Origin: Candidatus Thalassarchaeaceae archaeon
GTDB taxonomy: Archaea > Thermoplasmatota > Poseidoniia > Poseidoniales > Thalassarchaeaceae
Length of the DNA stretch: 32,000 nt
Direction: 5' to 3'
NCBI GenBank assembly: GCA_045568075.1
Contig: JBJLBP010000001.1
Coordinates: 900,001-932,000, forward strand
Shown here piece by piece: positions 1 to 21,139 of this stretch. The position numbers and the translations under genes were made by a program. Below the pieces are notes generated by a model. That model searched no databases. It worked only from the letters and a program-made list of their open reading frames with translations, and had not been told where the DNA came from. Position 1 is the first letter of the stretch. Each line of letters begins with the position of its first letter.

Positions 1-119
1 AGAGTGCGAACTTTCGCATTCCATTGATCACGCTCTTCGCGATTGTAGGTAATCTGCTCCTGAACATCATCGCAGCGAGGCTGCAGGAATCCGCGGATTT
101 CCTGACTTTCCATCTGCAT
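1..119 (-). CDS. 5' fragment of a probable further coiled-coil protein; the gene runs off the left edge
   Basis: Not in the ORF track because it has no stop inside the window. Reverse-strand ATG at 119..117 opens 'MQMESQEIRGFLQPRCDDVQEQITYNREERDQWNAKVRT' with no stop to position 1. The peptide is charged, and 'RD-x-WN-x-KVR' resembles the N-terminal repeats of the neighbouring coiled-coil genes. It follows those genes on the same strand and has its own TATA-like box upstream. Confidence 0.3.
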   Translation of the reverse strand, partial: MQMESQEIRGFLQPRCDDVQEQITYNREERDQWNAKVRT

Positions 120-155
120 ACAATCTTGCTCCTGTGGCTTTGCGTCCGACGTTTT

Positions 156-164
156 CCATATAAG
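156..164 (-). promoter_or_regulatory. TATA-like box (CTTATATGG on the minus strand) upstream of the truncated gene at 1..119
   Basis: Lies in the 80-nt gap between the stop of 199..1161 and the ATG at 119, about 40 nt upstream of that ATG. It shares the WTATGG core seen upstream of three other genes in the window. Confidence 0.3.
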
Positions 165-198
165 CGCATAGGAATTCTTCATTCGACCCAGAAATCGT

Positions 199-1161
199 TC
201 ATTCTCTCTTACTTGCCGAGCTACCACGTCGTGGTCCGCCTCGAGTTACACCGAGTCTCCGCTTCCCTTTTTTGCCAGAACGACCGCGCTTTTGCGGTTC
301 ATCTTGTGATTCTGTAGTCTTCGACTCACTGGCTATTCCCAATAGGCTGCCTGAGTCGAGTAGGGCGGTTAGTTCGTTGGTGTTCAGAGAACCGCCCGTA
401 CTGGCTCGCTCTTTGACATCAGCGAGTCGGATTGGTCGGCCACGTCCGCCAGTGATTTTGAGGTAGGAACGGAGGCGACCGGCTTCTTTCCGCAGATCTT
501 TTCGCTGTGATTTGATGGAGTCAAGGCGCTTATCGATACCATTGATTCGCCTGCTCATCTTACGGATTTCTCCCCGAGTCACCTTATCGGATTCGATATC
601 AGTGCCTTCAGTGGCGCCATCTGCAGTTGCTTCCCGAGTCTTTCTTGTAGCGTCGAGTTTTGTGGTCACCTTTCGCAGGTCTTCGATTTGAGAAACATAC
701 CGTGCGTGAGCCTCCTCGGCTTCGCGCTTACGAACGACTGCTGCTTGTAATTCGAAGAAGCGACGGAATGAGTCGAGTTCACGGTTGAGTGTTGGGACGG
801 AGGTTAGGTCGTTATCGATGGTGGTGAGTTTGGTGTGAGTTTCATCCATCCACTCTTCAAGAACGGTTGCTGGAGGTGGAATCGATATGTTCACCTTATC
901 GCGGAGATCTCTGTCTTTGTCGGCCTTTTTCTTGATCTCGTGGAAGCGACGGAGTAGTCCACGACGCTCTGAATCCGCTTCTTCGATTCCACCGACCGCG
1001 GTACGGAGGGATTTGACGAGGTCGACTTGTGATCGTCGATCGTGGCGTAGTGAGTTGAATTCATCCTCTAGTGAACGCAATTGCCGATTCAAATCTGCTG
1101 ATTTTTCCTCAATTTCGTCATGAGGTAGACCCTCAAGATCGTCGAAGAGTCCCTCGCTCAT
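199..1161 (-). CDS. Coiled-coil protein, COG1340-like (uncharacterised archaeal coiled-coil family), with a basic C-terminal tail
   Basis: 320-aa ORF, strongly E/R/K/D/L-rich with long heptad-like stretches and no TM or signal peptide. The C-terminus 'LLDSGSLLG...KKGKRRLGVTRGGPRRG' parallels that of 6548..7537. Its ATG overlaps the stop of the upstream gene (ATGA at 1161..1158), which suggests translational coupling. Confidence 0.7.
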   Translation of the reverse strand: MSEGLFDDLEGLPHDEIEEKSADLNRQLRSLEDEFNSLRHDRRSQVDLVKSLRTAVGGIEEADSERRGLLRRFHEIKKKADKDRDLRDKVNISIPPPATVLEEWMDETHTKLTTIDNDLTSVPTLNRELDSFRRFFELQAAVVRKREAEEAHARYVSQIEDLRKVTTKLDATRKTREATADGATEGTDIESDKVTRGEIRKMSRRINGIDKRLDSIKSQRKDLRKEAGRLRSYLKITGGRGRPIRLADVKERASTGGSLNTNELTALLDSGSLLGIASESKTTESQDEPQKRGRSGKKGKRRLGVTRGGPRRGSSASKRE

Positions 1162-2117
1162 TCTTCTTCACCTCCACGAGAAGGTGCGTCGGCCGCCTCA
1201 ACGGCCGGAGCAGTAGGTTCGGAGACAGATTCTACTGATTTCTTGCCTGAACCTACCTTAGCGGGTTGCTTTGATTTGTTTGACTTACCTTTGCGAGGGC
1301 TATTCTTTCCTTTCTTTTGATTATTCGGCTTCGTCTTTCGAGCAAAGGTTGAGTCTCCTCCTTCGGCAACCCGCTTCTTTGCGGCCAAGAGGTCAGTGAA
1401 ACCAAGTCCCAACTCTCCAAAGCCGTCCTTCAGACGGCGTTCCCAGTGACCGATTGCATCATCGGATTGAGCAAGAAGCTCCTTCGCTCTGTCTAGTACT
1501 CTACGAATTTCACGAATTTCAGCCTGCATCGCGACTTTCTTTTCATGCAGCGGTTGAGCTTTCTCAACTGCCTTGATCATGTCGCGATGTGACTTGTCAG
1601 CGGTCTTGAAGAGGTGGGACATTTCTCTTCGGGAATCGACATAATCGACCATTTCCGGGTTCATTTGACGCCTTTCCTTCAGCCACTTCTCATTTTGTTC
1701 GATGAGTTTCTTGCGGCGATCAATCATTTTTTTCTCAGCCTTATGGTCGAGAGCAGAGGTCTGGATGCTATCTTCGATATCATCCAGTTCTTCAAACAAC
1801 TTTTCTTTCTTCCAATCAGGGTCGAGACTCACCATTCCACCGGATTCAACGAGTGAGTCTCGGTGCCCACGCACCTTTGGAAGGAGTCCGTGGGCAACCT
1901 TTTGTGATGAATCTCTAGTACTCTTCAATTTGGCAACAATATCATTTGCTCGCTTGTGATTTTCGACCGCTCGATCTACCTTTGGAGCGAGGTTTTGTTC
2001 CTCTGCTTCAAGAGTGCGAATGACCGTAGGCAACTGATCTTTGAGCAACCTTCTACGGTTGAGCAAGGCTTGCGCCAATTCCTCTGGCGAGACGCGCAGG
2101 AGAGTCTCAGCATCCAT
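1158..2117 (-). CDS. Coiled-coil protein, COG1340-like paralogue with a Lys-rich low-complexity tail
   Basis: The track ORF 1158..2222 starts at a GTG that overlaps the divergent gene. The internal ATGs at 2147 (MARSNL) and 2117 (MDAETLL) are more plausible starts. I prefer 2117 because the TATA-like CCTTTATGG box lies about 31 nt upstream. The body is helical and charged ('LEAEEQNLAPKVDRAVENHKRANDIVAKLK', 'IREIRRVLDRAKELLAQSDDAI'). The tail is 'KKGKNSPRKGKSNKSKQPAKVGSGKK'. Confidence 0.65.
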   Translation of the reverse strand: MDAETLLRVSPEELAQALLNRRRLLKDQLPTVIRTLEAEEQNLAPKVDRAVENHKRANDIVAKLKSTRDSSQKVAHGLLPKVRGHRDSLVESGGMVSLDPDWKKEKLFEELDDIEDSIQTSALDHKAEKKMIDRRKKLIEQNEKWLKERRQMNPEMVDYVDSRREMSHLFKTADKSHRDMIKAVEKAQPLHEKKVAMQAEIREIRRVLDRAKELLAQSDDAIGHWERRLKDGFGELGLGFTDLLAAKKRVAEGGDSTFARKTKPNNQKKGKNSPRKGKSNKSKQPAKVGSGKKSVESVSEPTAPAVEAADAPSRGGEEE

Positions 2118-2143
2118 GTGCAGCCGGCCCAAATTGGAACGCG

Positions 2144-2173
2144 CCATAAAGGTCACTACGTGACCTTGAAATG
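2144..2173. promoter_or_regulatory. Symmetric divergent promoter region with a perfect 19-bp palindrome, AAGGTCAC-TAC-GTGACCTT at 2149..2167
   Basis: Read directly as CCATAAAGGTCACTACGTGACCTTGAAATGG. The core has two exact 8-bp inverted arms and a 3-nt spacer. It is flanked by outward-facing TATA-like elements: CCTTTATGG on the minus strand at 2144..2152, and CCTTGAAATGG on the plus strand at 2163..2173. It sits between the divergent genes whose starts are about 2117 (minus) and 2214 (plus). Confidence 0.5.
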
Positions 2174-2213
2174 GGGTTGGCTTGATACGCTTCACTACAC
2201 CGAGTCGCAGACG

Positions 2214-4130
2214 ATGAAGCACAGGCTGCGCCTACGCAACTTGCTTGTGATTTCCGTAGCCCTTCTCGTTGTCACACTCCTGAGTTCGACAGTCAGTGCT
2301 CAAGATCGCTTTACCATCGAGGATTCTTCCGGATGGGACGTTACCCTCATAGATGGCTCAACCAATGCTGTATCAGACAACTCCTCAGCTTTCTCCGGAG
2401 ACCAAATTCACCTATCGATTGAAGTTGCTAATGATGATACAGCAGCGGGCCATGACGAATGGTCCTTCCACATTGTCCTTGACGAGACTTCCTCACCTGA
2501 ACTGACTGGATTTCTTGACGGTTCAGAGGAATCCGTAATGGTAAACGTCTCGTTCGGGCCACTCCCTGCTGGTGAAATTCACCTCGTATTCACCATTGAT
2601 TCAAGCGGTGAAAGCGAAACAATGGTCCTACTTGTTGAACCCAATCCACTCAATCTAACAGCAGCAGGTTCGCCAGAAATCGCATTAATCGGCGAACCTG
2701 CCCATGTTGGAGATACCCTAACCGCCTCGATTCTTGTCCATAACCAAGGTAACTCCCCTCAAACCGTCCAACTCGAACTAACTCCTGGAACAGCAGAGCC
2801 AACCCTCGGCCCTCCAATCATCATCAATCCCGGCTCAAGCAGGGAAGTTTCAGCCTCCTTTACTCCCGACATCGCTGGACCTCTCAACATTGAGTGGCGT
2901 GTCCATTCAAACAATGGCGGGGTCGCCCGAGAGCTCAACGGAACATCCTCAGTCGAGGTCCTAAATTCGCAGACCATGACTCTCGTAATTGACTCGACGA
3001 CATGGGATCTAACCAATGGATTGAACTCTGAAATATCCCTCTATCTCTCAGAAGGTCGCTCTCGCGAAGTTAGTGTTGAAGTTGCAATTCTCGATCAAAC
3101 AATCGAATCAATCATTCAGACATTTTTACTTACACTCGACCCGGGAAGGAGAGAACTAACTCTCACACTCGGCTATCCTTCTGCAGATTCGCTAATCATT
3201 AGAGTCGAGGCGTTCGATTGGACCGCCTCGCAGGATTTGGAGGTGCAAACAATACTCACACCTCCACTCCTCGATCTCGAAGTTGAGTCATCAGGGGTAT
3301 CAACTGCTCCGCGGACAGGGGAGCAAGTGATTCTTCCGTACGACCTAAGTAACGACGGTAATACACCAACTCTGGCCGGTGAAATCAGGGTAGTGCGAAC
3401 CTCTGACGGCATGATTCTTGACACTAACCCTACCTCCGCAGTTGGCCCCGGACAAAGTCAGACGGGTCAATTGTCAATTGCCTCATGGCCCGATTCTAAA
3501 GTGGTCGAAGTCGAGATAATTTGGATCACTAGCGGTCAAACTGAAAGTCGCCTCCTTGAGATTGAATCTTTTACCGATGCTGATTCAGGAGCTGAGTTAC
3601 CATTCGATCTCTCAGCCGCGATTTATGGTGCAATCTCCGGGCTTGTTCTAGTAATGTTCATTCTCGTTCTCTATCGAACCGTCTCCGAGAGCGTTGCAGA
3701 TACTGGAACCTCTCGTTTCAATCGCTTGAGGGAGGCTCGCGGCGAGCGCAAGAAGGCAGCAGCTGCGACTAAGCGTGAAATCCCATGTCCCGAATGTGAT
3801 CAGCGCCTGAGTATCCCATCGACTCACGCGGGCGCTGTCAAATGTCCTGCTTGTACAACGAGATTTTCGGTCGATGCTGTCGCAGGTGCTACACCAACCC
3901 CGGATGCAGTTGTATCATCGGAGATGAGCCAAATGCCTTCGCCTCAATCGGTACCTGCTCCCGAGCCGGTTCCCGAACAACCTCTTGATGATGTGGCCCG
4001 TTCGATGGTTGATCTCCTTTCATGCCCATCTTGTGATCAAACGCTCAAGGTGCCTGTTGAACGTCGTCCAGTCAAGGCACGTTGTCCAGCCTGCCGTTCT
4101 GAGTTCATCGCGGAGGTTGGACAGGAATGA
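2214..4130 (+). CDS. Type I membrane surface protein: signal peptide, CARDB-like beta-sandwich repeats, one TM helix, and a cytoplasmic tail with two zinc ribbons
   Basis: The track ORF starts at 1956, but that part overlaps the divergent gene. The in-frame ATG at 2214 gives 'MKHRLRLRNLLVISVALLVVTLLSSTVSAQ', which looks like a signal peptide. CARDB-like segments include 'GDTLTASILVHNQGNSPQTVQLEL' and 'GEQVILPYDLSNDGNTPTLAGEIRV'. The TM helix is 'AAIYGAISGLVLVMFILVLY' (about 3615..3675). The tail carries 'CPECDQRLSIP...VKCPACTTRFSV' and 'CPSCDQTLKVP...ARCPACRSEFIA'. Confidence 0.75.
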   Translation: MKHRLRLRNLLVISVALLVVTLLSSTVSAQDRFTIEDSSGWDVTLIDGSTNAVSDNSSAFSGDQIHLSIEVANDDTAAGHDEWSFHIVLDETSSPELTGFLDGSEESVMVNVSFGPLPAGEIHLVFTIDSSGESETMVLLVEPNPLNLTAAGSPEIALIGEPAHVGDTLTASILVHNQGNSPQTVQLELTPGTAEPTLGPPIIINPGSSREVSASFTPDIAGPLNIEWRVHSNNGGVARELNGTSSVEVLNSQTMTLVIDSTTWDLTNGLNSEISLYLSEGRSREVSVEVAILDQTIESIIQTFLLTLDPGRRELTLTLGYPSADSLIIRVEAFDWTASQDLEVQTILTPPLLDLEVESSGVSTAPRTGEQVILPYDLSNDGNTPTLAGEIRVVRTSDGMILDTNPTSAVGPGQSQTGQLSIASWPDSKVVEVEIIWITSGQTESRLLEIESFTDADSGAELPFDLSAAIYGAISGLVLVMFILVLYRTVSESVADTGTSRFNRLREARGERKKAAAATKREIPCPECDQRLSIPSTHAGAVKCPACTTRFSVDAVAGATPTPDAVVSSEMSQMPSPQSVPAPEPVPEQPLDDVARSMVDLLSCPSCDQTLKVPVERRPVKARCPACRSEFIAEVGQE

Positions 4131-4158
4131 GTTCGAATGGTGAGGGAATGGTGGTCAG

Positions 4159-4812
4159 ATGCCCGAACTGAGCGAATTTGAAGAGATGTATCTCAAACGT
4201 ATGTTCGAGATGCATAGTGATCAACCGGATGCTATTGTCAAGACTTCGATGCTCGCTGAATTGATGGGCGTTAGCGCAGCATCGACGACCGAGATGATTC
4301 AGAGATTATCCGGTCGCGAACTCGTGACCTATATTCCTTACAAAGGCTCGAGATTGACTCCAGATGGATTTGCTCGAGCAGCACAGATCAAGCGTCGGCA
4401 ATTGCTGCTCGAATTATTACTAGCTGATGTCATCGGGTTCGATGGTGATGTTCACTCCGCTGCTTGTGAGATGGAACACGCGATCGATTCGGAATTAGAA
4501 GAAGCAATCGATCGACTCCTCGGATATCCCGAACGGACTCCCTCTGGCGAAAGGATTCCTCTGGTTTCACGCCGAGTCGAGCCTGCTGTAAATGCACCTT
4601 TACTACCCATAGCAAATATGCCTGAAGGGAGTTCCGGAACTATCGAATTCATCGCCCTCGAGGGTCAGGATACGCGCACACTTCAGACCCTTGGTTTAAT
4701 CGTCGGGCAATCGATTAAACGAAGCTCAGATTTACTCATTATAGATGGGGCTCCAGTCTCATTTTCAGATTCGTTAGCGACAAGAATTCTAGTCAGAGTG
4801 GAGATGTCTTGA
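4159..4812 (+). CDS. DtxR/MntR/IdeR-family metal-dependent transcriptional regulator with a C-terminal FeoA/SH3-like domain
   Basis: The N-terminal wHTH reads 'EMYLKRMFEM...SMLAELMGVSAASTTEMIQRLSGRELV'. The dimerisation/metal helix 'RRQLLLELLLADVIGFDGDVHSAACEMEHAIDSELEEAIDRLLGYPERTPSGERIP' aligns with the DtxR pattern H-x3-C-x2-E-H. The C-terminal 'GSSGTIEFIALEGQDTRTLQTLGLIVGQSI' is FeoA-like. Confidence 0.8.
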   Translation: MPELSEFEEMYLKRMFEMHSDQPDAIVKTSMLAELMGVSAASTTEMIQRLSGRELVTYIPYKGSRLTPDGFARAAQIKRRQLLLELLLADVIGFDGDVHSAACEMEHAIDSELEEAIDRLLGYPERTPSGERIPLVSRRVEPAVNAPLLPIANMPEGSSGTIEFIALEGQDTRTLQTLGLIVGQSIKRSSDLLIIDGAPVSFSDSLATRILVRVEMS

Positions 4813-5046
4813 ATGGAAGATGAAGATATTTCGGAATTCGACGAAGCCATCTCGGCACTGGCGGAAGAGATTCTCGAGGATGCTCCTGAACAAGTCCCTC
4901 ATCCTCTGGCTGCTCCACCACCACCACCACCACCCCCAGATCTCCCCCGATTGGCGCAGTTGCGGCAGCAAGAAGTGCTTCAGTCGACCCAATCGATGGT
5001 CTACGAGCGCAAGAGCGAACTCTTCTCAGAATCGATCGCCTACTAA
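4813..5046 (+). CDS. Small acidic protein (77 aa) with a central Pro8 run; function unknown
   Basis: The ATG follows the TGA of the regulator gene directly. The sequence is 'MEDEDISEFDEAISALAEEILEDAPEQVPHPLAAPPPPPPPPDLPRLAQLRQQEV'. The other two plus-strand frames and one minus-strand frame are also open here. Only this frame has the acidic composition typical of the other proteins in the window. Confidence 0.45.
   Translation: MEDEDISEFDEAISALAEEILEDAPEQVPHPLAAPPPPPPPPDLPRLAQLRQQEVLQSTQSMVYERKSELFSESIAY
4915..4938 (+). repeat. (CCA)6-CCCCCA trinucleotide tract encoding Pro8
   Basis: Read directly as ccaccaccaccaccaccaccccca. In the +1 frame the same tract gives a His6 run in the alternative ORF 4820..5344. 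Confidence 0.9.
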
Positions 5047-5153
5047 TCAGTGGGGGAATTCGCTTCGTTCTATTCCTCCCGCTTTTGGTCGTAATCAACT
5101 TCGGATTGGCTCATTCGTATCGAAATTCAACACCCGAATGGTGGTTGTTGCAT

Positions 5154-6428
5154 ATGCAGGATGTTGCTCCGGTAGAGATGCATCTTGGCATCCATTTCCT
5201 TTCTCTTTTCATCCTCGTTGCCAACATTACACTCCTCCTCCTACTGTTCCGTTTGCTGTCCGTTACACGCACGATATTCCGCCACGAGGCAGAATCATTG
5301 ACAACGGCAGGATTGACTTTCAAGAGCTCACATGGATATGCTGAGATGCGGGCTACAATCAATGGTTCCCGCCGACAATTAGGGGCGACCATAACCTTGC
5401 TATTCCTAGCCGCCTCTTTACTCGGAATTGCTTTGTGGTTGACTCCGGATGGAAATCTGTCACCGAGATTGGTCGCTCTCTCAACCGGGACGTTGCTAGC
5501 GGGGCATGGGTCTTTCCTCGTATCGAATCAGTCTCGGTTTAATGCCAGTGAACCGTGGGGGATGTTGAACGCTTTCTCCCCCCCAATTCATCCGGCTTTG
5601 TTGCGCCGTCCATTTTCGGATGTAATCAAGGCGCACATTGACCCGCTGCTGACGGTGCGTATCTCGGAGTATCTTCGCACGGTTGAAGAGGAAGTCAAGT
5701 CCGGACATTCAATGGCCCAGATACAGGAGACGCTGCTACATTTGCTGCATCTTCGTCGTAGTTCGTTAATCGACGAGCAGCAATTCCGCAGTGCTCTGGC
5801 TACGATGATAGATTCCGATTCGATAAACCGACTATTCGACCATCCTGAACTTGGTCAGGAGACCTGGGATAGATTACTCTCAGGAGCGATGGTGGATTGC
5901 GCTCCGTTCTTCCGTTTGCACGATCGCTTGCATATGCGTCAACAGACGGGGCGTACCGGTGTAGTTTGGTTTGATGTTGATATGGAGAATCTTGTCGTTG
6001 GTCCGGCTAATCTCTTCGCTTTCATATTGAACCAATCTGACGAAGTGCAAGATATGATTTTACGTGTACAGACCCCTGATTTCCGGCCGAATGAGTGCGA
6101 ATATCGATTGCGCGTAGAGCCTCATCAGGCGCTCGAATTCGATGGCCTCCGTCAGCTTGAATTAACCCAAACTCTGCCTCGATTACTAGCCTCAACCCGA
6201 ATAATTTGGCAGAGTTTACTCCCCTCTGGCACAGGTGAATCGACAGTGACTGTCCGCTTAGAAGATCCAGATGGAAACCTGATTTCCGGGAGAGTTTTGA
6301 CAGTACAGATTCGTAATGATCTATTCTCCCGTCTACGCATGACAACCGGTGCGTTATTCATCGTTGGAGCAACGATAGCCATCCTTTCTCCGATTTTGCC
6401 ATTTATTGGTTCGGTCCTCGGCCTTTGA
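5154..6428 (+). CDS. Polytopic membrane protein of unknown function: three N-terminal TM helices, a soluble domain of about 270 aa, and a C-terminal TM helix
   Basis: The track ORF begins at a TTG at 5085. The first ATG is at 5154 ('MQDVAPVEMHLGIHFLSLFILVANITLLLLLF'), so the start is uncertain. Further TM helices are 'LGATITLLFLAASLLGIALWL' and 'LVALSTGTLLAGHGSFLV'. The C-terminal helix is 'TGALFIVGATIAILSPILPFIGSVLGL'. I recognised no family motif. Confidence 0.6.
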   Translation: MQDVAPVEMHLGIHFLSLFILVANITLLLLLFRLLSVTRTIFRHEAESLTTAGLTFKSSHGYAEMRATINGSRRQLGATITLLFLAASLLGIALWLTPDGNLSPRLVALSTGTLLAGHGSFLVSNQSRFNASEPWGMLNAFSPPIHPALLRRPFSDVIKAHIDPLLTVRISEYLRTVEEEVKSGHSMAQIQETLLHLLHLRRSSLIDEQQFRSALATMIDSDSINRLFDHPELGQETWDRLLSGAMVDCAPFFRLHDRLHMRQQTGRTGVVWFDVDMENLVVGPANLFAFILNQSDEVQDMILRVQTPDFRPNECEYRLRVEPHQALEFDGLRQLELTQTLPRLLASTRIIWQSLLPSGTGESTVTVRLEDPDGNLISGRVLTVQIRNDLFSRLRMTTGALFIVGATIAILSPILPFIGSVLGL

Positions 6429-6435
6429 GCACAAG

Positions 6436-6453
6436 GGATGGAAATACCCATCC
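6436..6453 (+). terminator. Hairpin GGATGG-AAATAC-CCATCC, 8 nt after the stop of the 5154..6428 gene
   Basis: A 6-bp perfect stem with a 6-nt loop, read directly. No strong oligo-T follows, so a terminator role is only tentative. Confidence 0.25.
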
Positions 6454-6547
6454 TACCGAATCTGGCTCATTTGTAGAAAATCGGCCACTCATTAGCCGGT
6501 GATGAAAAGGCGGGTCCATTCAAGAGGGAAACCCGCGTCGCCCGGCC

Positions 6548-7537
6548 ATGTCCGAGGAGCCGGTCAATCCAGACGATGACTTGAGAAGTCGTCTACACGC
6601 GATGGAGACCAAGCTGCGACGAATGCGTGAGCAGCGAAATAGCCACAACGAAAATGCTCGCAGGGCTGCAGATTCGCGTAACGCGGTTCAGGAACAGGCC
6701 AAGAGCCTGCGCGAATCGATAGATGAGATGAAAGAGCAACAAAAGGAAATCCGCGATAGAGCCCGCGTCCACAAAGCCCGCCGCGACGAAATCCAATCCC
6801 ATATACGTGAACTCATAGCAAAGAAGCGTGGTCGAAGGGATGACCAACGTGGCACAAAATCAGTTGTTATCGAACTCTCCGAAACCGAGGGGCAAATAGA
6901 GCGTATCGAGCGCAGGCTGGAAACAGATGGAAGTTTGAAACTTGAGGACGAGAACAAACTTCTGAAGGAACTCAAGAAACTCATCGGCAAGAGAAACGAA
7001 TTACTTCCTGCCGTCAAAGAACATCAAACAATTTCAATAGATCTCGGTGATATGGACGAATCTATCTCACGACTCAAGGTGGAGGCTGACGCCGAGCATC
7101 AAGCAATGGTTGATTGTCATAAGGAAGCCGACGCAGTTTGGGAGGAAATCAAACCGATGTTCGAAGAACGCGATTTCGTACGTGCAGAAGGAGATCGACT
7201 TCACAATGCCTTCGTCGAGGCTCGCAAAGCTGCTGACGAAGTTCATTCTGAGATGAAGGGGCTGCTCGACCAGGTAAACGAAATTCGCGATTCACTCAAG
7301 GCTGCTCGTGATGAAAGAGAACAAACCATTCGCGATCACAATCAATCTGTACGCGATGCATTCCGCTCACCTTCTGAGAATGAAGAATTGGCCGGTTCAC
7401 TTGAGGAGATGTTCCTAGAAAGCGGTTCGTTGACATTGGGTGGAACTGGTGCTGAGCAGGAAAGTGAATCGGTTCGCTCAAAGAAGCCACAGAAAGGTAA
7501 GCGCCGCCGTCTTGGAACAACGCGTGGTCGCGTTTGA
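6548..7537 (+). CDS. Coiled-coil protein, COG1340-like, with a basic C-terminal tail
   Basis: 329 aa. The N-terminal half carries repeated helical segments ('RMREQRNSHNENARRAADSRNAVQEQAKSLRESIDEMKEQQKEIRDRARVHKARRDEIQSHIRELI'). The middle region 'IERIERRLETDGSLKLEDENKLLKELKKLIGKRNEL' is what I recall as typical of the archaeal COG1340 family. The C-terminus is 'FLESGSLTLG...KKPQKGKRRRLGTTRGRV'. Confidence 0.75.
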   Translation: MSEEPVNPDDDLRSRLHAMETKLRRMREQRNSHNENARRAADSRNAVQEQAKSLRESIDEMKEQQKEIRDRARVHKARRDEIQSHIRELIAKKRGRRDDQRGTKSVVIELSETEGQIERIERRLETDGSLKLEDENKLLKELKKLIGKRNELLPAVKEHQTISIDLGDMDESISRLKVEADAEHQAMVDCHKEADAVWEEIKPMFEERDFVRAEGDRLHNAFVEARKAADEVHSEMKGLLDQVNEIRDSLKAARDEREQTIRDHNQSVRDAFRSPSENEELAGSLEEMFLESGSLTLGGTGAEQESESVRSKKPQKGKRRRLGTTRGRV

Positions 7538-7559
7538 TTCAAGCAGTTGTTGAGTTAAG

Positions 7560-8549
7560 TCACCAGCCACGATCTTGTAAGCGGACTTCAAGTGTCTCGA
7601 TTTCGAGTCCAGGCATTGGTTCACCAATCATAGCGCTGGCCTCGGTGACAACCGCTGGATCTTCGAAATGATGAGTAGCGAGAACAATTGCTTCGGCAGT
7701 TTGAACCGGATCTGAACTTTTGAAGATACCAGAGCCGACGAAGATGCCGTCCATCCCTTGGTTCATCATCAAAGCAGCATCGGCTGGAGTGGAGATCCCT
7801 CCTGCAGAGAAAGTGACGACAGGAAGACGTCCGAGGCGTGCAACGTCGTCGAGGACGGAAGCAACTTCGGTTCGTAGATCTTCCATGCTACCGAAGGGAG
7901 TAGTGTTTGGTGATATATCGAATGCCGATACTCTCTCAATGCGATGAAATCCCTCCATTATCACATCCACCATAGCATTGCGCCCCTCGTCACCAGAGGA
8001 CTGAGCATGAGTGATTTCTGAGGCCACCAAACGGGCGTGTTGAATTGCGCTGACAACATTACCAGTCCCCGCCTCGCCCTTGGTTCTCATCATCGCAGCT
8101 CCCTCTGCGATGCGTCGAACCGCCTCGCCGAGACTCGTACAGCCGCAAACGAATGGGATGTTGAAATCGTTCTTCGCGATGTGGAAGAATGGATCAGCAG
8201 GAGTTAGAACCTCTGATTCATCTACCATATCGACGCCGAGACTTTCGAGGACCCTCGCTTCCTCATTGTGACCGATTCTGGCCTTAGCCATCACTGGAAT
8301 TGAAGTCGTCTCTATGATTTCCTTGATTAAATCAGGGTGACTCATTCGAGCCACGCCTCCGCTTGAGCGGATATCTGCTGGAACACGCTCGAGCGCCATG
8401 ACAGATGTGGCCCCAGAATCCTCAGCGATATGAGCCTCTTCGGCTGTAACGACGTCCATGATGACTCCACCTTCTTGCATCTTGGCGAAGCCACGCTTGA
8501 GCAACTCGGTGCCGTGACGCATCTGATTCAGGTCCACTCGCTGAGTCAT
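7560..8549 (-). CDS. pdxS: Pyridoxal 5'-phosphate synthase subunit PdxS
   Basis: Diagnostic stretches are '[35 protein letters not shown]', '[34 protein letters not shown]' and '[32 protein letters not shown]'. The length of 329 aa fits the long archaeal form. Confidence 0.95.
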
Positions 8550-8613
8550 ACCCGAGCCTCACGGCATCCACTCATCAATCTATGTTTGAGGCAGGTTAGA
8601 CGCCAGGCTCGCA

Positions 8614-8889
8614 TCAATCTGCAAGGACTGGTGAGTCGCCTGTGGCGATTTCGAGATCCGGGGATTCGTTCTCATTACGCTCAATCCATTCCAACTCCTC
8701 ATCTGGAACATCGGTGTCAGCGAAGATAGCCTCTACTGGGCACTCAGCGACACATGCTGCACAATCGATACATTCATCCGGGTCAATAACGAGGTAGTTT
8801 TCGGCTTCCTTGAATGCCTCGACTGGACAGACTGCTACACAATCTTGGTACTTGTGGTCAATACATGCGCTGGTCACTACGTGGGTCAT
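8614..8889 (-). CDS. 7Fe-type ferredoxin ([3Fe-4S][4Fe-4S]) with an acidic C-terminal extension
   Basis: From the ATG at 8889 the protein reads '[26 protein letters not shown]...[21 protein letters not shown]'. This matches the C-x7-C-x3-CP plus C-x2-C-x2-C-x3-CP layout of FdxA-like ferredoxins. The track start at 8904 adds 5 residues. Confidence 0.9.
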
Positions 8890-8920
8890 CTCATCCCTCA
8901 TCAAGACGCGTGCTACGCAT

Positions 8921-8930
8921 CCATATCAAG
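8921..8930 (-). promoter_or_regulatory. TATA-like box (CTTGATATGG on the minus strand) upstream of the ferredoxin gene
   Basis: About 36 nt upstream of the ATG at 8889, with the WTATGG core. Confidence 0.3.
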
Positions 8931-8987
8931 GCTCGTACCGCTTCATGGCCCATAATGCTAGATTGGTTTGAGGGGAGTTTGGTCGGA

Positions 8988-9431
8988 CTACACGATATCA
9001 TCGATTAGCTGATTGAGGATTTCAACCGGCTCTTGTCCCGGGTAAGATTCTATCTTGAATCGACCTTTTACTGCGAATTTACGACTTTTTCCGGTTGCTA
9101 AAGAAATTCTGCCCTGCACCAATTCATCGATGTCAATTCTTACGTGCAGGGCCTTATCCTCGTCGATTAGGTCAGCAATTCCTGCAGAACGTAAATCGCT
9201 TAGTGCGGCAACTCCCATACGCAGGAAAGCCTGTTTCGCGCCTTTCTTCCGATCGATACTAGCTTCAATCATCATCTGAGGTGCGCCATGATGCGATTTT
9301 GAGCGCTCACGGGATATTTCAGCACCCTCACCTGCGAGCCATTGCATTGAATCCTCTATCACTGAGAGATCATCCACAGCACTGCAATGCACTCTCCACG
9401 AGGCGCTGTGTAAACTCATATTCGATTGCAC
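8988..9431 (-). CDS. Archaeal DUF54/COG1325-type RNA-binding protein ('predicted exosome subunit' family)
   Basis: Size of about 145 aa. The pattern 'WRVHCSAVDDLSVIEDSMQWL...HHGAPQMMIEASIDRKKGAKQAFLRMG...LHVRIDIDELVQGRISL...FKIESYPG' matches my recollection of that family. The call is from memory only. Confidence 0.45.
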   Translation of the reverse strand: MQSNMSLHSASWRVHCSAVDDLSVIEDSMQWLAGEGAEISRERSKSHHGAPQMMIEASIDRKKGAKQAFLRMGVAALSDLRSAGIADLIDEDKALHVRIDIDELVQGRISLATGKSRKFAVKGRFKIESYPGQEPVEILNQLIDDIV

Positions 9432-9559
9432 TAGTGTGCTGCCCTTGAAGGCGACGCTGCGCCTCTGTCTGAGGTGGACGTTCTGAGGCTTTCATTCATA
9501 TACTGGAGGTAGGTCGCTCGGCCCGCATACGGGGTAGCCCCCGATAAGAGGTGTCTCTG

Positions 9560-10534
9560 ATGGCAAAAGGCGCAAAGGCAAGGGCAGCGGCACGCAAGCA
9601 GAGAGACAAGTGGAAGGCAAAGCGCTGGTTCACGATTCGAGCACCTCGTAATCCATGGTCATTCCGAATCATCGGCGAGACTATCGCGGAAGAGCCCGAA
9701 CAATTGGTCGGACGTACTTTCGATATTATGCAAAATGAACTTGATGGCGACTTTTCCAAGATGCACGTCCAAGTCGTCTTCCGAATCACCGATGTTGTTG
9801 GCGGCGATGCTCTCACCGAGTTTTCCGGTCACAATGTCCAGAAGGATCACATTCGCCGTCAGATTCGTCGCTACCGCGGTAAGGTTGACGACACGGTCGA
9901 CGTTGTTACTGAGGATGGATACTATGTTCGATTCAAGCCGCTATTGATTTCACGTGGTCGCGTCAAGTCGAGTCAGAAGTCAGCAATGCGAGCGAAAGCG
10001 CGCGATGCGATTCTTACTATGGGTGCATCATCAACCTGGATTCAACTCCAGAAGGCTGTTCTCGATGGAACCATGGAGACCGCGATTAAGGAAGCGGTCT
10101 CTACCATTAGTCCAGTTCGAACTGCGATGATTCGTCGCAGCCAACTTTTGCAGAGCGGAGTCACTGGTGAAGACGGACCTACTCTTGATGAAATTCACGC
10201 TGAAGAGAAGGCTGCTGCGGCTGCCTCTTTAGTCGAGGAGGTCGACGTTCTCGCTGCGGCTGAAGCATCTGCAGAATTGGCTGAGGTCGATGGAGATACC
10301 TCTGGTGCTGTAGAATCCGACGAAGAATCTTCTGAGGAATCAACAGAAGATACTGTGGTCGAAGAGGTTGTTGAGGAACCTGCTGACGAAGCCGATGAAA
10401 CTCCAGAAGCAGATGACGGCGACTCACCTGATTACACTTCGATGACAGTGGCAGAGCTCAAGGGACTCCTGAAGGAGGCCGGCAAGCCGGTCTCTGGAAA
10501 GAAGGCAGATCTCATCTCTCGCCTACAAGAGTGA
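9560..10534 (+). CDS. rps3ae: Ribosomal protein eS1 (S3Ae) fused to an acidic low-complexity linker and a C-terminal SAP/HeH-like domain
   Basis: 'MAKGAKARAAARKQRDKWKAKRWFTIRAPRNPW...LVGRTFDIMQNELDGDFSKMHVQVVFRI...FSGHNVQKDHIRRQIRR...DGYYVRFKPLLISRGRVKSSQKSAMR' is canonical S3Ae. The first ATG is at 9560; the track start is a GTG at 9551. Track residues from about 201 to 327 form a D/E/A-rich stretch ending 'MTVAELKGLLKEAGKPVSGKKADLISRLQE'. Confidence 0.9.
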   Translation: MAKGAKARAAARKQRDKWKAKRWFTIRAPRNPWSFRIIGETIAEEPEQLVGRTFDIMQNELDGDFSKMHVQVVFRITDVVGGDALTEFSGHNVQKDHIRRQIRRYRGKVDDTVDVVTEDGYYVRFKPLLISRGRVKSSQKSAMRAKARDAILTMGASSTWIQLQKAVLDGTMETAIKEAVSTISPVRTAMIRRSQLLQSGVTGEDGPTLDEIHAEEKAAAAASLVEEVDVLAAAEASAELAEVDGDTSGAVESDEESSEESTEDTVVEEVVEEPADEADETPEADDGDSPDYTSMTVAELKGLLKEAGKPVSGKKADLISRLQE

Positions 10535-11683: not shown

Positions 11684-12094
11684 GTGGGTCAACATCGTCA
11701 CATGACTAGGCCGATGTCTGTAACTGATTGGATTGAGATCGATGGAGCCAACGAGCCAGATGGAGCTTGGACTACGATGATGGCTCGCGTAGCTGCATTC
11801 CATCACAAACACGATTTTGCCAGCGTAGAGAATAATGGCCATGATATGGGTTATCGAGTAGCTTTGACTGTAGAGGAACTTGGAGAATTCGCTGCGGCGA
11901 TAACCAAAGGAAAACCGAAGGAAGAAGCTGCTGAGGAATTGGCTGACTTACTTATTCTCATTCTCGGCCACTCACTGGCGATGAATATCGACCTCGAAGC
12001 TGAGTTCCATCGAAAAATGGATCGAATCATGCAGCGCAAGGCACGCCGAGGTAATTTGGGTATTCGAGTGACCGAATATGCCGGTGAAGAATAA
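11684..12094 (+). CDS. MazG-like all-alpha nucleotide pyrophosphohydrolase
   Basis: The 'VEELGEFAAAI...EEAAEELADLLILILGHSLAMNIDLEAEFHRKMDRIMQR' E-x2-E...E-x2-D signature is present. The start is uncertain: GTG at 11684, or ATG at 11699 or 11711. Confidence 0.7.
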   Translation: MGQHRHMTRPMSVTDWIEIDGANEPDGAWTTMMARVAAFHHKHDFASVENNGHDMGYRVALTVEELGEFAAAITKGKPKEEAAEELADLLILILGHSLAMNIDLEAEFHRKMDRIMQRKARRGNLGIRVTEYAGEE

Positions 12095-12098
12095 TTGC

Positions 12099-12680
12099 TC
12101 AAATGTCAAAATTGATTTCGACAGAGCCGCGTGCTTGATGCTGCGCTTCGTATAGAATTCGAGAAGTGCACCCTTTGAACGAAGCAACGATATTGTTTGG
12201 AACGAGTTCGATTGCTGTGTTGAAGTTCGTTGCTGAACTATTGTACAATTGGCGTTGATCGGTGACCTGGTCCTCGATTTCCTTGTAATCGTCTTGTAGA
12301 GCAGCGAAATTAGCATTCGCCTTTAGGTCCGGATAATCCTCAGACAATGCCAGCAATTTGGGCATGGCTAGAGATGCCATTGCCTCTGCCGCCATGACTC
12401 CACTTACATCGCCAGACTTTGAGGCGGCAGCGAAAGTTTTCCTCGCTTCAGTCAACTCTCCGAAAATTTCCTTTTCATGACCTGCATACTGCATGACTAT
12501 CTTCACCATATTAGGGATCATGTCGAATCTCTGCTGCAGAACTGTATCGATATTCGACCACGCTCGGTCAACATCCTTCTCGAGTCGGACCAATCGATTC
12601 CATACACCAAAGAACCAGAGAACCAGTACTAGTAGGATTATTCCACCGCACATGGTGAACGCAATAGCAGTGCCTTCCAT
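12099..12680 (-). CDS. lemA: LemA family membrane protein
   Basis: N-terminal TM 'GGIILLVLVLWFFGVWNRLV', followed by 'VDRAWSNIDTVLQQRFDMIPNMV...HEKEIFGELTEAR', 'SEDYPDLKANANFAALQDDYKEIEDQVTDQRQLYNSSATNFNTAIELVPNNIVA'. Confidence 0.9.
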   Translation of the reverse strand: MEGTAIAFTMCGGIILLVLVLWFFGVWNRLVRLEKDVDRAWSNIDTVLQQRFDMIPNMVKIVMQYAGHEKEIFGELTEARKTFAAASKSGDVSGVMAAEAMASLAMPKLLALSEDYPDLKANANFAALQDDYKEIEDQVTDQRQLYNSSATNFNTAIELVPNNIVASFKGCTSRILYEAQHQARGSVEINFDI

Positions 12681-12740
12681 GATGACTCAACTCTAGCCGT
12701 TAGTAATCAAGATTGACCCGGATTTACCAATTATTACTCA

Positions 12741-14156: not shown

Positions 14157-14209
14157 GCCATCTCTTTCTACCTTAGTCGAATTAAGTTTGAGTCGGCATG
14201 AGTTACAAA

Positions 14210-14614: not shown

Positions 14615-14615
14615 A

Positions 14616-21130: not shown

Positions 21131-21139
21131 TCCCTCACC

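What the first reader, a model, noticed from the sequence alone, without database searches (positions are those of the whole stretch)
1..7537. Three to four paralogous coiled-coil (COG1340-like) genes bracket a surface/membrane module: a candidate uncharacterised envelope-scaffold system
Seen in sequence: three complete cytoplasmic coiled-coil ORFs (199..1161, 1158..2117, 6548..7537) and a 39-codon start of a possible fourth (1..119) lie within 7.5 kb. Two share a C-terminal signature not shared with anything else in the window, 'SGSL-x-LG ...(acidic)... KGKRR(R)LG-x-TRG'. The third ends in a Lys-rich tail. The first two are coupled by an ATGA overlap. Between the minus-strand trio and the plus-strand copy sit a CARDB-like surface protein with cytoplasmic zinc ribbons, a DtxR-type regulator, a 77-aa acidic polyproline protein and an orphan membrane protein. 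All are on one strand with gaps of 0 to about 120 nt. Established knowledge: as far as I know, COG1340 archaeal coiled-coil proteins have no assigned function. Inference: the paralogue expansion and the tight linkage to membrane proteins with cytoplasmic protein-binding modules suggest a submembrane scaffold or cytoskeleton-like assembly. In this model the basic tails would bind nucleic acid or acidic lipid.
Basis: partly seen in the sequence, partly recalled or inferred. Interest (0 to 1): 0.7.

Follow-up and report, generated by a model that had tools for sequence, protein, structure and literature searches.

The report
Coiled-coil paralog cluster with membrane partners
A Marine Group II archaeon keeps four diverged copies of a widespread, uncharacterised archaeal coiled-coil protein beside two membrane proteins and a metal-sensing regulator; the arrangement holds across both families of the order, and in the sister family one copy is fused to an RNA-tailing enzyme, a first functional lead.

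Summary
ORFs 199-1161(-), 1158-2117(-) and 6548-7537(+) are conserved genes, and 1-119(-) is the start of a fourth. By profile comparison, three belong to DUF7121/COG1340, which I infer equals arCOG01159. That arCOG is listed as a top-priority archaeal unknown, present in 492 of 524 genomes. The 199-1161 protein is a highly diverged relative. One correction: the "77-aa polyproline protein" and the "orphan membrane protein" are a single 537-aa gene, split here by an indel in a CCA/C run.

The block p4, p1<-p2 | palindrome | surf->DtxR->memb->p3 is invariant in 80 species genomes. Its core also survives in deep lineages with rearranged flanks, including Poseidoniaceae. The p2/p1 ATGA overlap, the operon-like spacing, a conserved 19-bp palindrome in the divergent promoter, and the surface protein's two cytoplasmic zinc ribbons are all conserved.

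In most deep-lineage loci, including one labelled Poseidoniaceae, the p1 orthologue carries an N-terminal URT1/Cid1-type terminal nucleotidyltransferase. This favours RNA over lipid as the ligand of the basic "TxRG" tails.

Function remains untested. My best guess, at low confidence, is a membrane-tethered heteromeric coiled-coil adaptor that handles RNA. This is a new variant of a known but uncharacterised family.

The parts
1..119 (-). p4: first 39 codons of a fourth DUF7121 paralogue. It is 291-294 aa in relatives and has the type-b C-terminus '...LMSGDTLSTDEIMALQRN' with no basic tail.
   Evidence: The translation is identical to the N-terminus of L005:11049-11924. That orthologue scores 32.7 bits on PF23435 (cut-off 29). 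hhalign to canonical DUF7121 gives 99.2%.
199..1161 (-). p1: 320-aa highly diverged coiled-coil hairpin. It carries 'GGSLNTNELTALLDSGSL', then an acidic spacer, then the basic tail 'KKGKRRLGVTRGGPRRG'.
   Evidence: No Pfam family reaches its cut-off. Orthologues are found only among MGII-type sequences. AF2 gives pLDDT 78.4, a long helical hairpin and a disordered tail. hhalign p1-p3 gives 94.7%, E 6e-8, over 265 columns. The tail pI is 11.6.
1158..2117 (-). p2: 319-aa DUF7121 paralogue (an alternative start at 2147 would give 329 aa). It carries 'GGDSTFARK', a Lys-rich tail and a terminal 'GGEEE'. Its stop overlaps the p1 start (ATGA).
   Evidence: All listed orthologues carry precomputed PF23435.3. 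hhalign to canonical DUF7121 gives 98.3%, E 1.2e-14. The overlap is conserved in 109 of 113 loci.
2149..2167 (.). 19-bp perfect palindrome AAGGTCAC-TAC-GTGACCTT in the p2/surf divergent intergenic region. It is a candidate operator overlapping a TATA-like 'CTTTAT' about 33 nt upstream of the p2 ATG.
   Evidence: The core AGGTCAC-N3-GTGACCT occurs once in the window. It occurs exactly once per locus in 62 related loci, and lies in this intergenic region wherever I checked. The deep lineages (including loci I assign to MGIIa) carry a different palindrome, ACCCACCC-N4-GGGTGGGT, in the same intergenic region.
2214..4130 (+). surf: 638-aa type-I membrane protein. In order: signal peptide, CARDB/Ig-like repeats, one TM helix, and a cytoplasmic tail with two zinc ribbons.
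   Evidence: CARDB scores 28.3 bits (cut-off 22.7) and Zn_ribbon_4 22.7 bits (below cut-off). The exact 638-aa product is on 40 contigs. Both zinc ribbons are conserved in all lineages, while the whole protein varies from 488 to 955 aa.
4159..4812 (+). DtxR/MntR-family metal-dependent regulator with a weak C-terminal FeoA/SH3-like region.
   Evidence: PF02742 scores 66.7 bits and PF01325 50.1 bits. The NCBIfam MntR model scores 97 bits, below its cut-off. Read by eye against DtxR (alignment from memory), Met10, Cys102, Glu105 and His106 equivalents are present ('EEMYL', 'CEMEH').
4813..6428 (+). memb: one gene, 537-538 aa in near-identical strains. In order: acidic/poly-Pro cytoplasmic N-terminus, 4 TM helices, a ~270-aa conserved domain predicted to be cytoplasmic, and a C-terminal TM helix. 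In the window it is split into 4813..5046 and 5085..6428 by an indel at about 4915-4938.
   Evidence: Searches show the indel. No Pfam family matches. It is unrelated to DUF373. The topology comes from my reading with the positive-inside rule (inference).
6548..7537 (+). p3: 329-aa DUF7121 paralogue with 'LLESGSLTLGG', an acidic spacer and the basic tail 'KGKRRRLGTTRGRV'. It is the last gene of the surf-DtxR-memb-p3 unit.
   Evidence: PF23435 scores 30.5 bits (cut-off 29). hhalign to canonical DUF7121 gives 100%, E 5e-43. AF2 gives pLDDT 82.5 with helices 8-126, 132-272 and 277-291 and a disordered tail. The memb-to-p3 gap has a median of 38 nt and is <=0 in 54 of 151 loci.

Best explanation
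The region is a conserved, probably co-regulated divergon of Poseidoniales (Marine Group II). A translationally coupled pair p2->p1 (with p4 downstream) faces an operon surf->DtxR->memb->p3.

Shown: p2, p3 and p4 are members, and p1 is a strongly diverged member, of the archaeal coiled-coil family DUF7121/COG1340. I infer this family equals arCOG01159. Each protein is predicted to be a long antiparallel two-helix hairpin, about 18-20 nm by my estimate. It has a conserved tip, a short C-terminal motif next to the N-terminus and, in p1, p2 and p3, lineage-specific charged tails.

Inferred mechanism:
1. The hairpins pair into heteromeric rods. p2 (type-a C-terminus) pairs with p1 (type-b), and possibly p3 (a) with p4 (b).
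2. The rods are held at the membrane through the conserved cytoplasmic parts of surf (two zinc ribbons) and memb (acidic N-terminus plus a ~270-aa domain).
3. The Arg/Gly-rich 'TxRG' tails of p1 and p3 bind nucleic acid, most likely RNA. In most deep-lineage loci, including the lineage labelled Poseidoniaceae, the p1 orthologue delivers a URT1/Cid1-type terminal nucleotidyltransferase on the same coiled coil.
4. Expression of both arms is set from a palindromic operator in the shared promoter region, plausibly by the embedded DtxR-family regulator.
For: Family identity:
- Pfam, precomputed Pfam and hhalign results support membership.
- Signature motifs 'RDxxN/Q' in helix 1 and 'AxxHxxxV' in helix 2 are shared by p1-p4 and canonical members.
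- C-terminal motifs of type a and type b are shared with non-MGII homologues.

Fold:
- AF2 predicts hairpins for p3 and p1.
- Foldseek finds only generic antiparallel coiled coils, and the top hit is the same for both models.

Linkage:
- The order is identical in 80 species genomes.
- The core p1-p2 | surf ... p3 is kept in deep lineages. There the block proteins are 23-44% identical and PdxS 63-69%. This holds despite inversion or relocation relative to L7Ae/RNAP and PdxS, loss of DtxR or memb, and insertions next to p4.
- In the six deep loci I inspected in detail, nothing is inserted inside the core.

Coupling:
- ATGA or GTGA at the p2 stop in 109 of 113 loci.
- Median gaps are 9 nt (surf to DtxR), -1 nt (DtxR to memb) and 38 nt (memb to p3).

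Cis element: a palindrome occurs once per locus in the divergent intergenic region, in 62 loci for type A and 28 loci for type B.

Cytoplasmic constraint on the membrane proteins: the zinc-ribbon tail is conserved while overall protein length varies about two-fold.

RNA lead:
- 33 of 38 complete p1 orthologues in the deep-lineage loci are 617-755 aa.
- Two of the three long forms scanned match MTPAP-like_central (5e-32) and PAP_assoc (3e-12).
- One of them matches URT1, TUT7 and Cid1 structures by sequence (7e-39 to 3e-31).
- One such protein is labelled Candidatus Poseidoniaceae.
- The tails are basic, with pI 11.6-11.7.
Against: - No physical interaction has been tested, and no multimer prediction was possible.
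- AF2 monomer runs tend to fold long helices back on themselves, so the hairpin is a prediction. The conserved Gly/Pro-containing tip at mid-length supports it.
- Coiled-coil composition can inflate profile scores, and p1's link to the family is the weakest (74-95%).
- The window's own p1 has no transferase domain, and the window contains no transferase homologue.
- Much of the wider neighbourhood (PdxS, ferredoxin, S3Ae) is also syntenic, so part of the conservation may be inertia.
- In three canonical homologue contexts from non-MGII archaea, the gene is single within +/-6 kb, sits next to small-molecule enzymes such as a SerB-like HAD hydrolase, and has no such membrane genes nearby.
- DtxR-less lineages keep a 1-mismatch version of the palindrome, so the DtxR-operator link is unproven.
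- The T. kodakarensis protein TK2157 was seen in a chromatin fraction. That could point to DNA rather than RNA.
Confidence: 0.33

Rival explanations
1. Envelope scaffold. The coiled-coil paralogues polymerise into a submembrane lattice or cytoskeleton. The lattice is anchored by surf and memb and stabilises or shapes the envelope. The basic tails bind acidic lipid head groups.
For: The coiled-coil genes are linked to two membrane proteins with constrained cytoplasmic parts. Four paralogues could build a heteropolymer. The tails are strongly basic.
Against: The predicted fold is a closed antiparallel hairpin, not a parallel IF-like rod. No filament-forming family is matched. The tail contains a specific conserved 'TxRG' motif rather than an amphipathic helix. 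The transferase fusion points to RNA. Three canonical family contexts showed no membrane partners of this kind.
Confidence: 0.17
2. No joint system. The four genes are diverged housekeeping copies of the arCOG01159 family with separate cytosolic roles. Their adjacency to surf, DtxR and memb reflects conserved synteny and a shared promoter region only.
For: The whole neighbourhood (RNAP operon, L7Ae, PdxS, ferredoxin, S3Ae, PNP) is syntenic across MGIIb. Three canonical homologues from elsewhere sit in unrelated contexts. DtxR or memb can be lost without loss of the rest.
Against: The core block moves as a unit when the flanks rearrange, and no insertion was seen inside it in the six deep loci inspected, at 23-44% protein identity. 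p3 sits in operon-like spacing behind memb, with overlaps in a third of loci. The divergent promoter carries a conserved palindrome.
Confidence: 0.3
3. Metal-starvation module. The embedded DtxR-family repressor controls surf and memb as a surface/membrane system for metal (Fe/Mn) acquisition or homeostasis. The coiled-coil genes are merely co-regulated passengers.
For: A DtxR/MntR regulator sits inside the operon with the primary-site ligands retained. A 19-bp palindrome of DtxR-box size lies in the promoter region. The metal-site residues and the palindrome type change together between MGIIb and the deep lineages.
Against: Neither surf nor memb resembles any transporter, siderophore receptor or metal-binding family. 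Two lineages lack DtxR yet keep the block, and at least one of them keeps a related palindrome. The co-variation between regulator and palindrome is not phylogenetically independent.
Confidence: 0.15

Closest known systems
DUF7121 (PF23435) / COG1340 'uncharacterized archaeal coiled-coil protein'. I infer it equals arCOG01159 (representative TK2157).
   Same: p3 and p4 pass the Pfam cut-off. p2's orthologues carry the precomputed hit. All align to canonical 286-300-aa members at 98-100% hhalign probability. They share the size, the hairpin fold, the internal 'RDxxN/Q' and 'AxxH' motifs and the C-terminal 'GGxxTL' or 'GxxLSxxEFxxL' motifs.
   Different: There are four clustered copies, against a single copy within +/-6 kb in the three other contexts seen. 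p1, p2 and p3 carry added charged tails. p1 has diverged beyond Pfam recognition and is fused to a nucleotidyltransferase in deep lineages, including one labelled Poseidoniaceae. The genes are linked to membrane proteins rather than to the SerB-like HAD gene reported for the arCOG. The equation with arCOG01159/TK2157 is an inference: I could not obtain the TK2157 sequence.
SMC/Rad50/MukB coiled-coil arms
   Same: Long antiparallel two-helix coiled coil. The best structural matches are Smc arm fragments (5xg2, 5nnv), and there are weak profile hits to the arm regions.
   Different: There are no ATPase head, hinge or zinc-hook domains. Scores of 12-25 bits compare with cut-offs of 300-1087. The proteins are complete at about 320 aa and are not fragments.
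Eukaryotic Cid1/URT1/TUT4/7 terminal nucleotidyltransferases (relevant to deep-lineage p1 orthologues, not to the window's p1)
   Same: The N-terminal ~380 aa of L103/L164-type p1 has the palm and PAP-associated domains, and the GS...DLDL catalytic motif is intact. phmmer against URT1 gives 7e-39.
   Different: The domain is fused to a diverged DUF7121 coiled coil with a basic tail, in an archaeon. It is absent from the window lineage. One deep lineage (L093) has a degenerate catalytic motif. Activity and substrate are untested.
DtxR/IdeR/MntR-regulated loci with a ~19-bp palindromic operator
   Same: The regulator domains pass the Pfam cut-offs. A 19-bp palindrome lies in the promoter region of the unit that encodes the regulator.
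   Different: The operator sequence differs from the DtxR box as I recall it. Binding is untested. The regulated genes are not recognisable metal transporters.
Bacterial coiled-coil cytoskeletal or scaffold proteins (crescentin/IF-like, DivIVA)
   Same: Coiled-coil-rich proteins proposed to act at the membrane.
   Different: There is no sequence or fold match. The predicted intramolecular hairpin differs from parallel dimeric rods, and there is no evidence of polymerisation.

Membership tests
DUF7121 / COG1340 (inferred = arCOG01159) | Sequence match to the family profile (PF23435) at or above the curated cut-off | tested here: met
   This holds for p3 (30.5 bits, cut-off 29) and for the full-length p4 orthologue (32.7 bits). 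p2 gives no hit in the local Pfam copy. However, all its listed orthologues carry precomputed PF23435.3, and hhalign to canonical members gives 98.3%, E 1.2e-14.
DUF7121 / COG1340 (inferred = arCOG01159) | The same profile criterion applied to p1 (199..1161) | tested here: inconclusive
   No PF23435 hit for p1 or any listed orthologue. hhalign gives p1-p3 94.7% (E 6e-8, 265 columns), p1-p4 88.5% and p1-canonical 74%. Shared internal and C-terminal motifs support membership.
DUF7121 / COG1340 (inferred = arCOG01159) | A protein of about 290-330 aa made of two long helices forming an antiparallel coiled-coil hairpin | tested here: met
   AF2 for p3: helices 8-126 and 132-272, pLDDT 82.5. AF2 for p1: helices 14-117 and 125-237, pLDDT 78.4. 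These are monomer predictions.
DUF7121 / COG1340 (inferred = arCOG01159) | Genomic linkage to a SerB-like HAD phosphatase (arCOG01158), as reported for the arCOG | tested here: not met
   I found no HAD gene among the window ORFs I scanned or among the block genes. The linkage is seen in a non-MGII homologue (L172). It is a context feature, not a membership requirement.
SMC / Rad50 | ABC-type ATPase head domains plus a hinge or zinc hook at the ends of the coiled coil | tested here: not met
   Only arm-region matches of 12-25 bits against cut-offs of 300-1087. The ORFs are complete at 319-329 aa.
DtxR/MntR family regulator (4159..4812) | N-terminal winged-HTH (PF01325) plus the metal-binding/dimerisation domain (PF02742) | tested here: met
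   50.1 and 66.7 bits against cut-offs of 26 and 27.
DtxR/MntR family regulator (4159..4812) | Metal-ligand residues and metal-dependent binding to a palindromic operator | tested here: inconclusive
   'EEMYL' and 'CEMEH' fit DtxR Met10, Cys102, Glu105 and His106, while the His79 equivalent is Gln. This was read by eye against DtxR from memory. A palindrome is present, but binding is not testable here, and DtxR-less lineages keep a related palindrome.
CARDB/Ig-like archaeal surface protein (2214..4130) | Signal peptide, CARDB-type beta-sandwich repeats and a membrane anchor | tested here: met
   CARDB scores 28.3 bits (cut-off 22.7), with weaker HYDIN/ASH Ig-like hits. The N-terminal signal-like sequence and the single TM helix before the zinc-ribbon tail were read from the sequence.
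Intermediate-filament-like / polymerising coiled-coil cytoskeleton | A parallel dimeric rod that self-assembles into filaments | not testable with these tools
   The monomer models fold as hairpins, which argues against this. Assembly cannot be tested in silico here.
Cid1/TUTase non-canonical nucleotidyltransferases | Pol-beta palm with GS...DxD plus a PAP-associated domain | tested here: not met
   The feature is absent from the window's p1, and tblastn finds no significant match in the window. It is met only by deep-lineage orthologues such as L103 and L164.

The most novel reading that the evidence does not exclude
The block is a membrane-anchored RNA-handling platform built from heteromeric arCOG01159 hairpins. 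The rods dock on the zinc-ribbon tail of a surface protein. They present Arg/Gly 'TxRG' tails to RNA 3' ends and, in Poseidoniaceae, a eukaryote-type terminal uridylyl/adenylyl-transferase as well. If so, a near-universal archaeal 'dark matter' coiled-coil family would be an RNA/RNP adaptor, and Marine Group II archaea would possess a eukaryote-like RNA-tailing enzyme.
Probability: 0.15. Interest if true: 0.8.

Novelty: new variant of a known kind. Interest (0 to 1): 0.55.

Why it matters
arCOG01159 is listed as a top-priority uncharacterised archaeal protein family, present in 492 of 524 genomes (PMC6393860). I infer that COG1340/DUF7121 is this family. In the literature I could search, no function has been assigned to it.

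Marine Group II archaea are among the most abundant planktonic archaea and are uncultured. Their four-copy cluster gives three kinds of context that the three single-copy homologue loci I examined do not show:
- conserved membrane partners with constrained cytoplasmic domains;
- a translationally coupled pair of paralogues of the two C-terminal types;
- a domain fusion to a URT1/Cid1-type RNA nucleotidyltransferase.

These turn "function unknown" into hypotheses that can be tested in tractable archaea such as Thermococcus and Haloferax: a/b heteromers, RNA binding, and membrane tethering. The fusion also flags a possible eukaryote-type RNA-tailing activity in archaea.

Tried and rejected
- Pairwise BLASTP among the three proteins gave nothing significant.
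- Narrow-alignment hhalign gave only 75-80% probability. Broader alignments were needed.
- A PDB sequence search with the p3 profile found only a chance rootletin hit.
- Foldseek against the PDB, for both models, found only generic antiparallel coiled coils and no E <= 1e-3. ESCRT-III, PspA and IF-like folds did not appear among the top 50.
- The afdb50 fold library was unavailable.
- I tested whether memb is a diverged DUF373, the membrane gene next to a canonical homologue in L170. hhalign rejected this at 0.2% probability. No Pfam family matches memb.
- PADLOC gave only weak SMC-arm-type hits, so there is no evidence of a defence system.
- Rfam found no RNA family in 1-9500.
- Presence or absence of DtxR against the palindrome first looked clean: none of the 8 DtxR-less loci had an exact palindrome. 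A search allowing mismatches then found related palindromes in DtxR-less loci. I therefore do not claim the operator assignment.
- The first genome-contig scan returned only the 80 closest species, all with the same order. Deeper lineages came from a metagenome scan seeded with the most distant orthologues.
- Literature searches for COG1340, DUF7121, arCOG01159, TK2157 and TUTase in MGII found no functional study.

Full report
WHAT IS THERE

The window comes from a Marine Group II archaeon. Homologues are labelled Candidatus Thalassarchaeaceae/Thalassarchaeum, and P0121 is 100% identical to the 199..1161 product on 154 contigs.

Genes in 1-7537:
- p4: start only, 1..119(-).
- p1: 199..1161(-), 320 aa.
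- p2: 1158..2117(-), 319 aa.
- surf: 2214..4130(+), 638 aa.
- DtxR-family regulator: 4159..4812(+).
- memb: 4813..6428(+).
- p3: 6548..7537(+), 329 aa.
PdxS follows, convergent with p3 (7560..8549).

CHECK OF THE OBSERVATION

Coordinates, the ATGA overlap, the Lys-rich tail of p2 and the shared C-terminal signature of p1 and p3 are all correct. In the six-frame translation of the window, 'SGSL(x)LG' and 'RRLGxTRG' occur only in these two ORFs. Both motifs are kept in orthologues down to 35-50% identity.

The 39-codon fragment is identical to the N-terminus of a 291-aa protein in near-identical contigs. That protein passes the DUF7121 cut-off.

One item is wrong. The 77-aa acidic polyproline 'protein' and the 'orphan membrane protein' are one gene. 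Contigs L005-L007 carry an uninterrupted 537-538-aa ORF. The window differs by +2/-1 nt inside the CCACCACC...CCCCC run at about 4915-4938. No gene with the 77-aa product is on record, whereas the intact 537-aa product is on 60 contigs.

ARE THEY PARALOGUES?

Pairwise BLASTP shows nothing (E 0.04-0.19), so the claim rests on profiles.
- p3 matches PF23435 (DUF7121) at 30.5 bits against a cut-off of 29.
- All listed p2 and p3 orthologues carry the precomputed PF23435 hit. No p1 orthologue does.
- Local HMMs built from p3 and p2 orthologues hit each other's families at about 1e-8.
- With alignments that include deep lineages, hhalign gives: p3-canonical 100% (E 5e-43), p4-canonical 99.2%, p2-canonical 98.3%, p1-p3 94.7% (E 6e-8 over 265 columns), p1-p4 88.5%, p1-canonical 74%, and p1-p2 nothing.
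- Consensus strings show shared internal motifs. Helix 1 carries 'RDxxN/Q' and helix 2 carries 'AxxHxxxV' in all four paralogues and in the canonical set.

Non-MGII homologues (286-300 aa) mostly end in '...LLKKGKIEL' (type a). A few end in '...GEKLSFEEFxxLxxxGxL' (type b).
- p3 ('LLESGSLTLGG') and p2 ('GGDSTFA') look like type a.
- p4 ('SGDTLSTDEIMAL') and p1 ('GGSLNTNELTALLDSGSL') look like type b.
- hhalign agrees modestly: p3 prefers a (1e-44 against 1e-19) and p4 prefers b (1e-21 against 2e-18).

So 'three to four paralogues' is supported. p1 is by far the most diverged.

STRUCTURE

AF2 predicts long antiparallel hairpins.
- p3: helices 8-126 and 132-272, a short helix 277-291, then a disordered tail; pLDDT 82.5.
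- p1: the same plan; pLDDT 78.4.

Foldseek against the PDB returns only generic antiparallel coiled coils: Smc arm 5xg2 is top for both models, then chemoreceptors and dynein stalks. Nothing reaches E <= 1e-3. The proteins have no ATPase heads, so they are not SMC fragments.

THE FAMILY

[quoted passage not shown] - I equate DUF7121 with arCOG01159 by inference. A non-MGII DUF7121 gene overlaps a HAD hydrolase gene (L172). Cluster members are named 'phosphoserine phosphatase' or 'coiled-coil DUF342 family protein'.
- TK2157 appears only in proteomic lists and in one transposon mutant. I found no functional study.
- A profile search of 1.84 billion representatives found only 271 proteins at E <= 1e-3. 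About nine are full-length clusters of the tailed p3 type.

IS THE LINKAGE CONSERVED?

In 80 species-level genomes (p3 identity 54-97%), every contig is consistent with the order L7Ae, unkC, p4, p1, p2 | surf, DtxR, memb, p3 | PdxS. By my reading of the table, 68 contigs contain the full string.

That alone could be synteny inertia. I therefore seeded a metagenome scan with the most distant p3 orthologues. In those loci the block proteins are 23-44% identical to the window's and PdxS is 63-69%. One long-p1 protein is labelled Candidatus Poseidoniaceae and another Poseidoniia. The block is therefore present in both families of the order.

The flanks differ in these deep lineages:
- PdxS is inverted and separated from p3 by a sugar nucleotidyltransferase.
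- In one lineage the block lies inverted relative to unkC/L7Ae/RNAP, and p4 is not adjacent.
- Small genes are inserted between p4 and p1.
- DtxR is missing in two lineages, and memb in one of them.

In the six deep loci I inspected in detail, nothing is inserted within p1-p2 | surf ... p3.

Other conserved features:
- The p2 stop is ATGA or GTGA in 109 of 113 loci. This includes loci where the ATG opens the long form of p1.
- Median gaps are 9 nt (surf to DtxR), -1 nt (DtxR to memb) and 38 nt (memb to p3).
- The surf cytoplasmic tail with two zinc ribbons is conserved everywhere, while the protein varies from 488 to 955 aa.
- By the positive-inside rule (my reading), memb has a cytoplasmic acidic/Pro-rich N-terminus, four TM helices, a ~270-aa conserved cytoplasmic domain and a C-terminal TM helix (alignment).

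In contrast, three canonical homologues from other archaea are single within +/-6 kb and sit in unrelated contexts.

A CIS ELEMENT

The 97-nt divergent region holds a perfect 19-bp palindrome, AAGGTCAC-TAC-GTGACCTT (2149-2167).
- Its core occurs exactly once per ~20-kb locus in 62 loci. Wherever I checked, it lies about 32 nt upstream of the p2 ATG.
- Deep-lineage loci carry ACCCACCC-N4-GGGTGGGT in the same intergenic region, in 28 loci.
- The embedded regulator keeps the Cys102, Glu105 and His106 equivalents in both groups. It has Met at the DtxR-Met10 position in window-like loci and Glu in the deep lineages.
- Loci without DtxR keep a 1-mismatch AT-rich palindrome.

So the element is real, but its assignment to this regulator is only plausible.

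THE FUNCTIONAL LEAD

In 33 of 38 complete p1 orthologues from the deep lineages, the protein is 617-755 aa.
- Of the three long forms I scanned, two have an N-terminal ~380 aa that matches MTPAP-like_central (5e-32), PAP_assoc (3e-12) and NTP_transf_2.
- One of these matches URT1, TUT7/4, CutA and Cid1 structures at 7e-39 to 3e-31 by sequence, and the GS...DLDL motif is intact.
- The third lineage (L093) looks catalytically degenerate.
- All 73 window-like p1 proteins are short, and the window has no transferase homologue.

A terminal RNA nucleotidyltransferase sitting on the same coiled coil and basic tail argues that the tails contact RNA rather than lipid. The tails have pI 11.6-11.7 and a conserved 'TxRG' core.

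INTERPRETATION

Shown:
- Family identity and the predicted hairpin fold.
- Conservation of the block in both families of the order.
- Translational coupling of p2 and p1, and operon-like spacing of surf-DtxR-memb-p3.
- The conserved palindrome.
- Constrained cytoplasmic parts of the membrane proteins.
- The transferase fusion.

Inferred:
- a/b heteromeric rods.
- Docking on the cytoplasmic domains of surf and memb.
- RNA binding by the tails.
- Control by the DtxR homologue.

I give the joint model about one chance in three. Three rivals remain open: pure envelope scaffold, no joint system, and metal-response module. PADLOC and Rfam gave nothing relevant.

VERDICT

This is a real, conserved, undescribed gene block built on a known but uncharacterised family, so it is a new variant of a known kind. 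The evidence shifts the most likely ligand of the tails to RNA.

Noticed in passing
L103:2235-4301(-), L164:2064-4241(-), L093:1852-3849(-); 33 loci among L093-L169: In deep lineages, one of them labelled Candidatus Poseidoniaceae, the p1 orthologue is a 617-755-aa fusion. A eukaryote-type URT1/TUT7/Cid1-like terminal nucleotidyltransferase (Pfam 5e-32; PDB sequence match 7e-39) is joined to the diverged coiled coil and basic tail. Sources call it 'hypothetical protein'. I found no literature on such an enzyme in MGII. In the L093 lineage the catalytic DxD is degenerate.
   Followed up: partly
window 4915-4938: An indel (+2/-1 nt relative to near-identical contigs) in a CCA/C homopolymer-like tract that encodes poly-Pro splits the 537-aa membrane protein gene. 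It is either an assembly error or a strain-specific, possibly slippage-prone, frameshift.
   Followed up: yes
window 2149-2167: A perfect 19-bp palindrome, AAGGTCACTACGTGACCTT, lies in the p2/surf divergent promoter region. Its core occurs once per locus in 62 loci. Deep lineages carry a different palindrome (ACCCACCC-N4-GGGTGGGT) in the same intergenic region. Over-extended gene calls translate the palindrome as a pseudo-conserved 'PFQGHVVTF' N-terminus of p2.
   Followed up: partly
p3 residues ~75-83 and ~179-187; p1 ~74-91 and ~149-155 (window 6548-7537 and 199-1161): Conserved His, Arg, Asp and Glu residues lie inside the coiled coil ('HxxxRDxxQ' on helix 1, 'EADxEH' on helix 2). They are shared with canonical DUF7121 proteins and lie roughly opposite each other in the predicted hairpin. 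This may be a buried polar network or a ligand/metal site.
   Followed up: no
L005:11902-12855(-) and equivalents (just outside the window's left end): A conserved ~317-aa gene with no Pfam match ('unkC') is convergent with p4, and their 3' ends overlap by ~23 nt. In the rearranged lineage it travels with L7Ae and the RNAP operon rather than with p4.
   Followed up: partly
window 9551-10534(+): Ribosomal protein S3Ae carries a C-terminal SAP domain (47 bits). This holds in all related loci whose gene tables I saw.
   Followed up: no
window ~12000-15000: GC drops to 0.42-0.45 against ~0.50 elsewhere. The stretch covers a LemA-family gene (12099-12680), a 471-aa ORF with no Pfam match (12741-14156) and a MauE-like membrane ORF. 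It may be an island.
   Followed up: no
window 20525-24380: A cluster of ZPR1-like (20525-21130), a weak SepF-like ORF (21140-21616; 25 bits, below cut-off), proteasome beta (21720-22382) and FttA/aCPSF1 (22464-24380).
   Followed up: no
L143, L146, L151, L163, L167 (low-GC lineage, GC ~0.34); L090/L091: These are reduced versions of the block. The low-GC lineage lacks DtxR, has p2 truncated to ~163 aa and has a short surf (~490 aa). The P0369 lineage (L090/L091) lacks both DtxR and memb, so surf is followed directly by p3.
   Followed up: partly
L015 (WTHU01000131.1), L081 (NZEN01000001.1), cluster member P0557: Contigs carrying this archaeal block are filed under bacterial MAGs (Acidimicrobiales, Opitutia, Deltaproteobacteria). 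This is most likely mis-binning.
   Followed up: no
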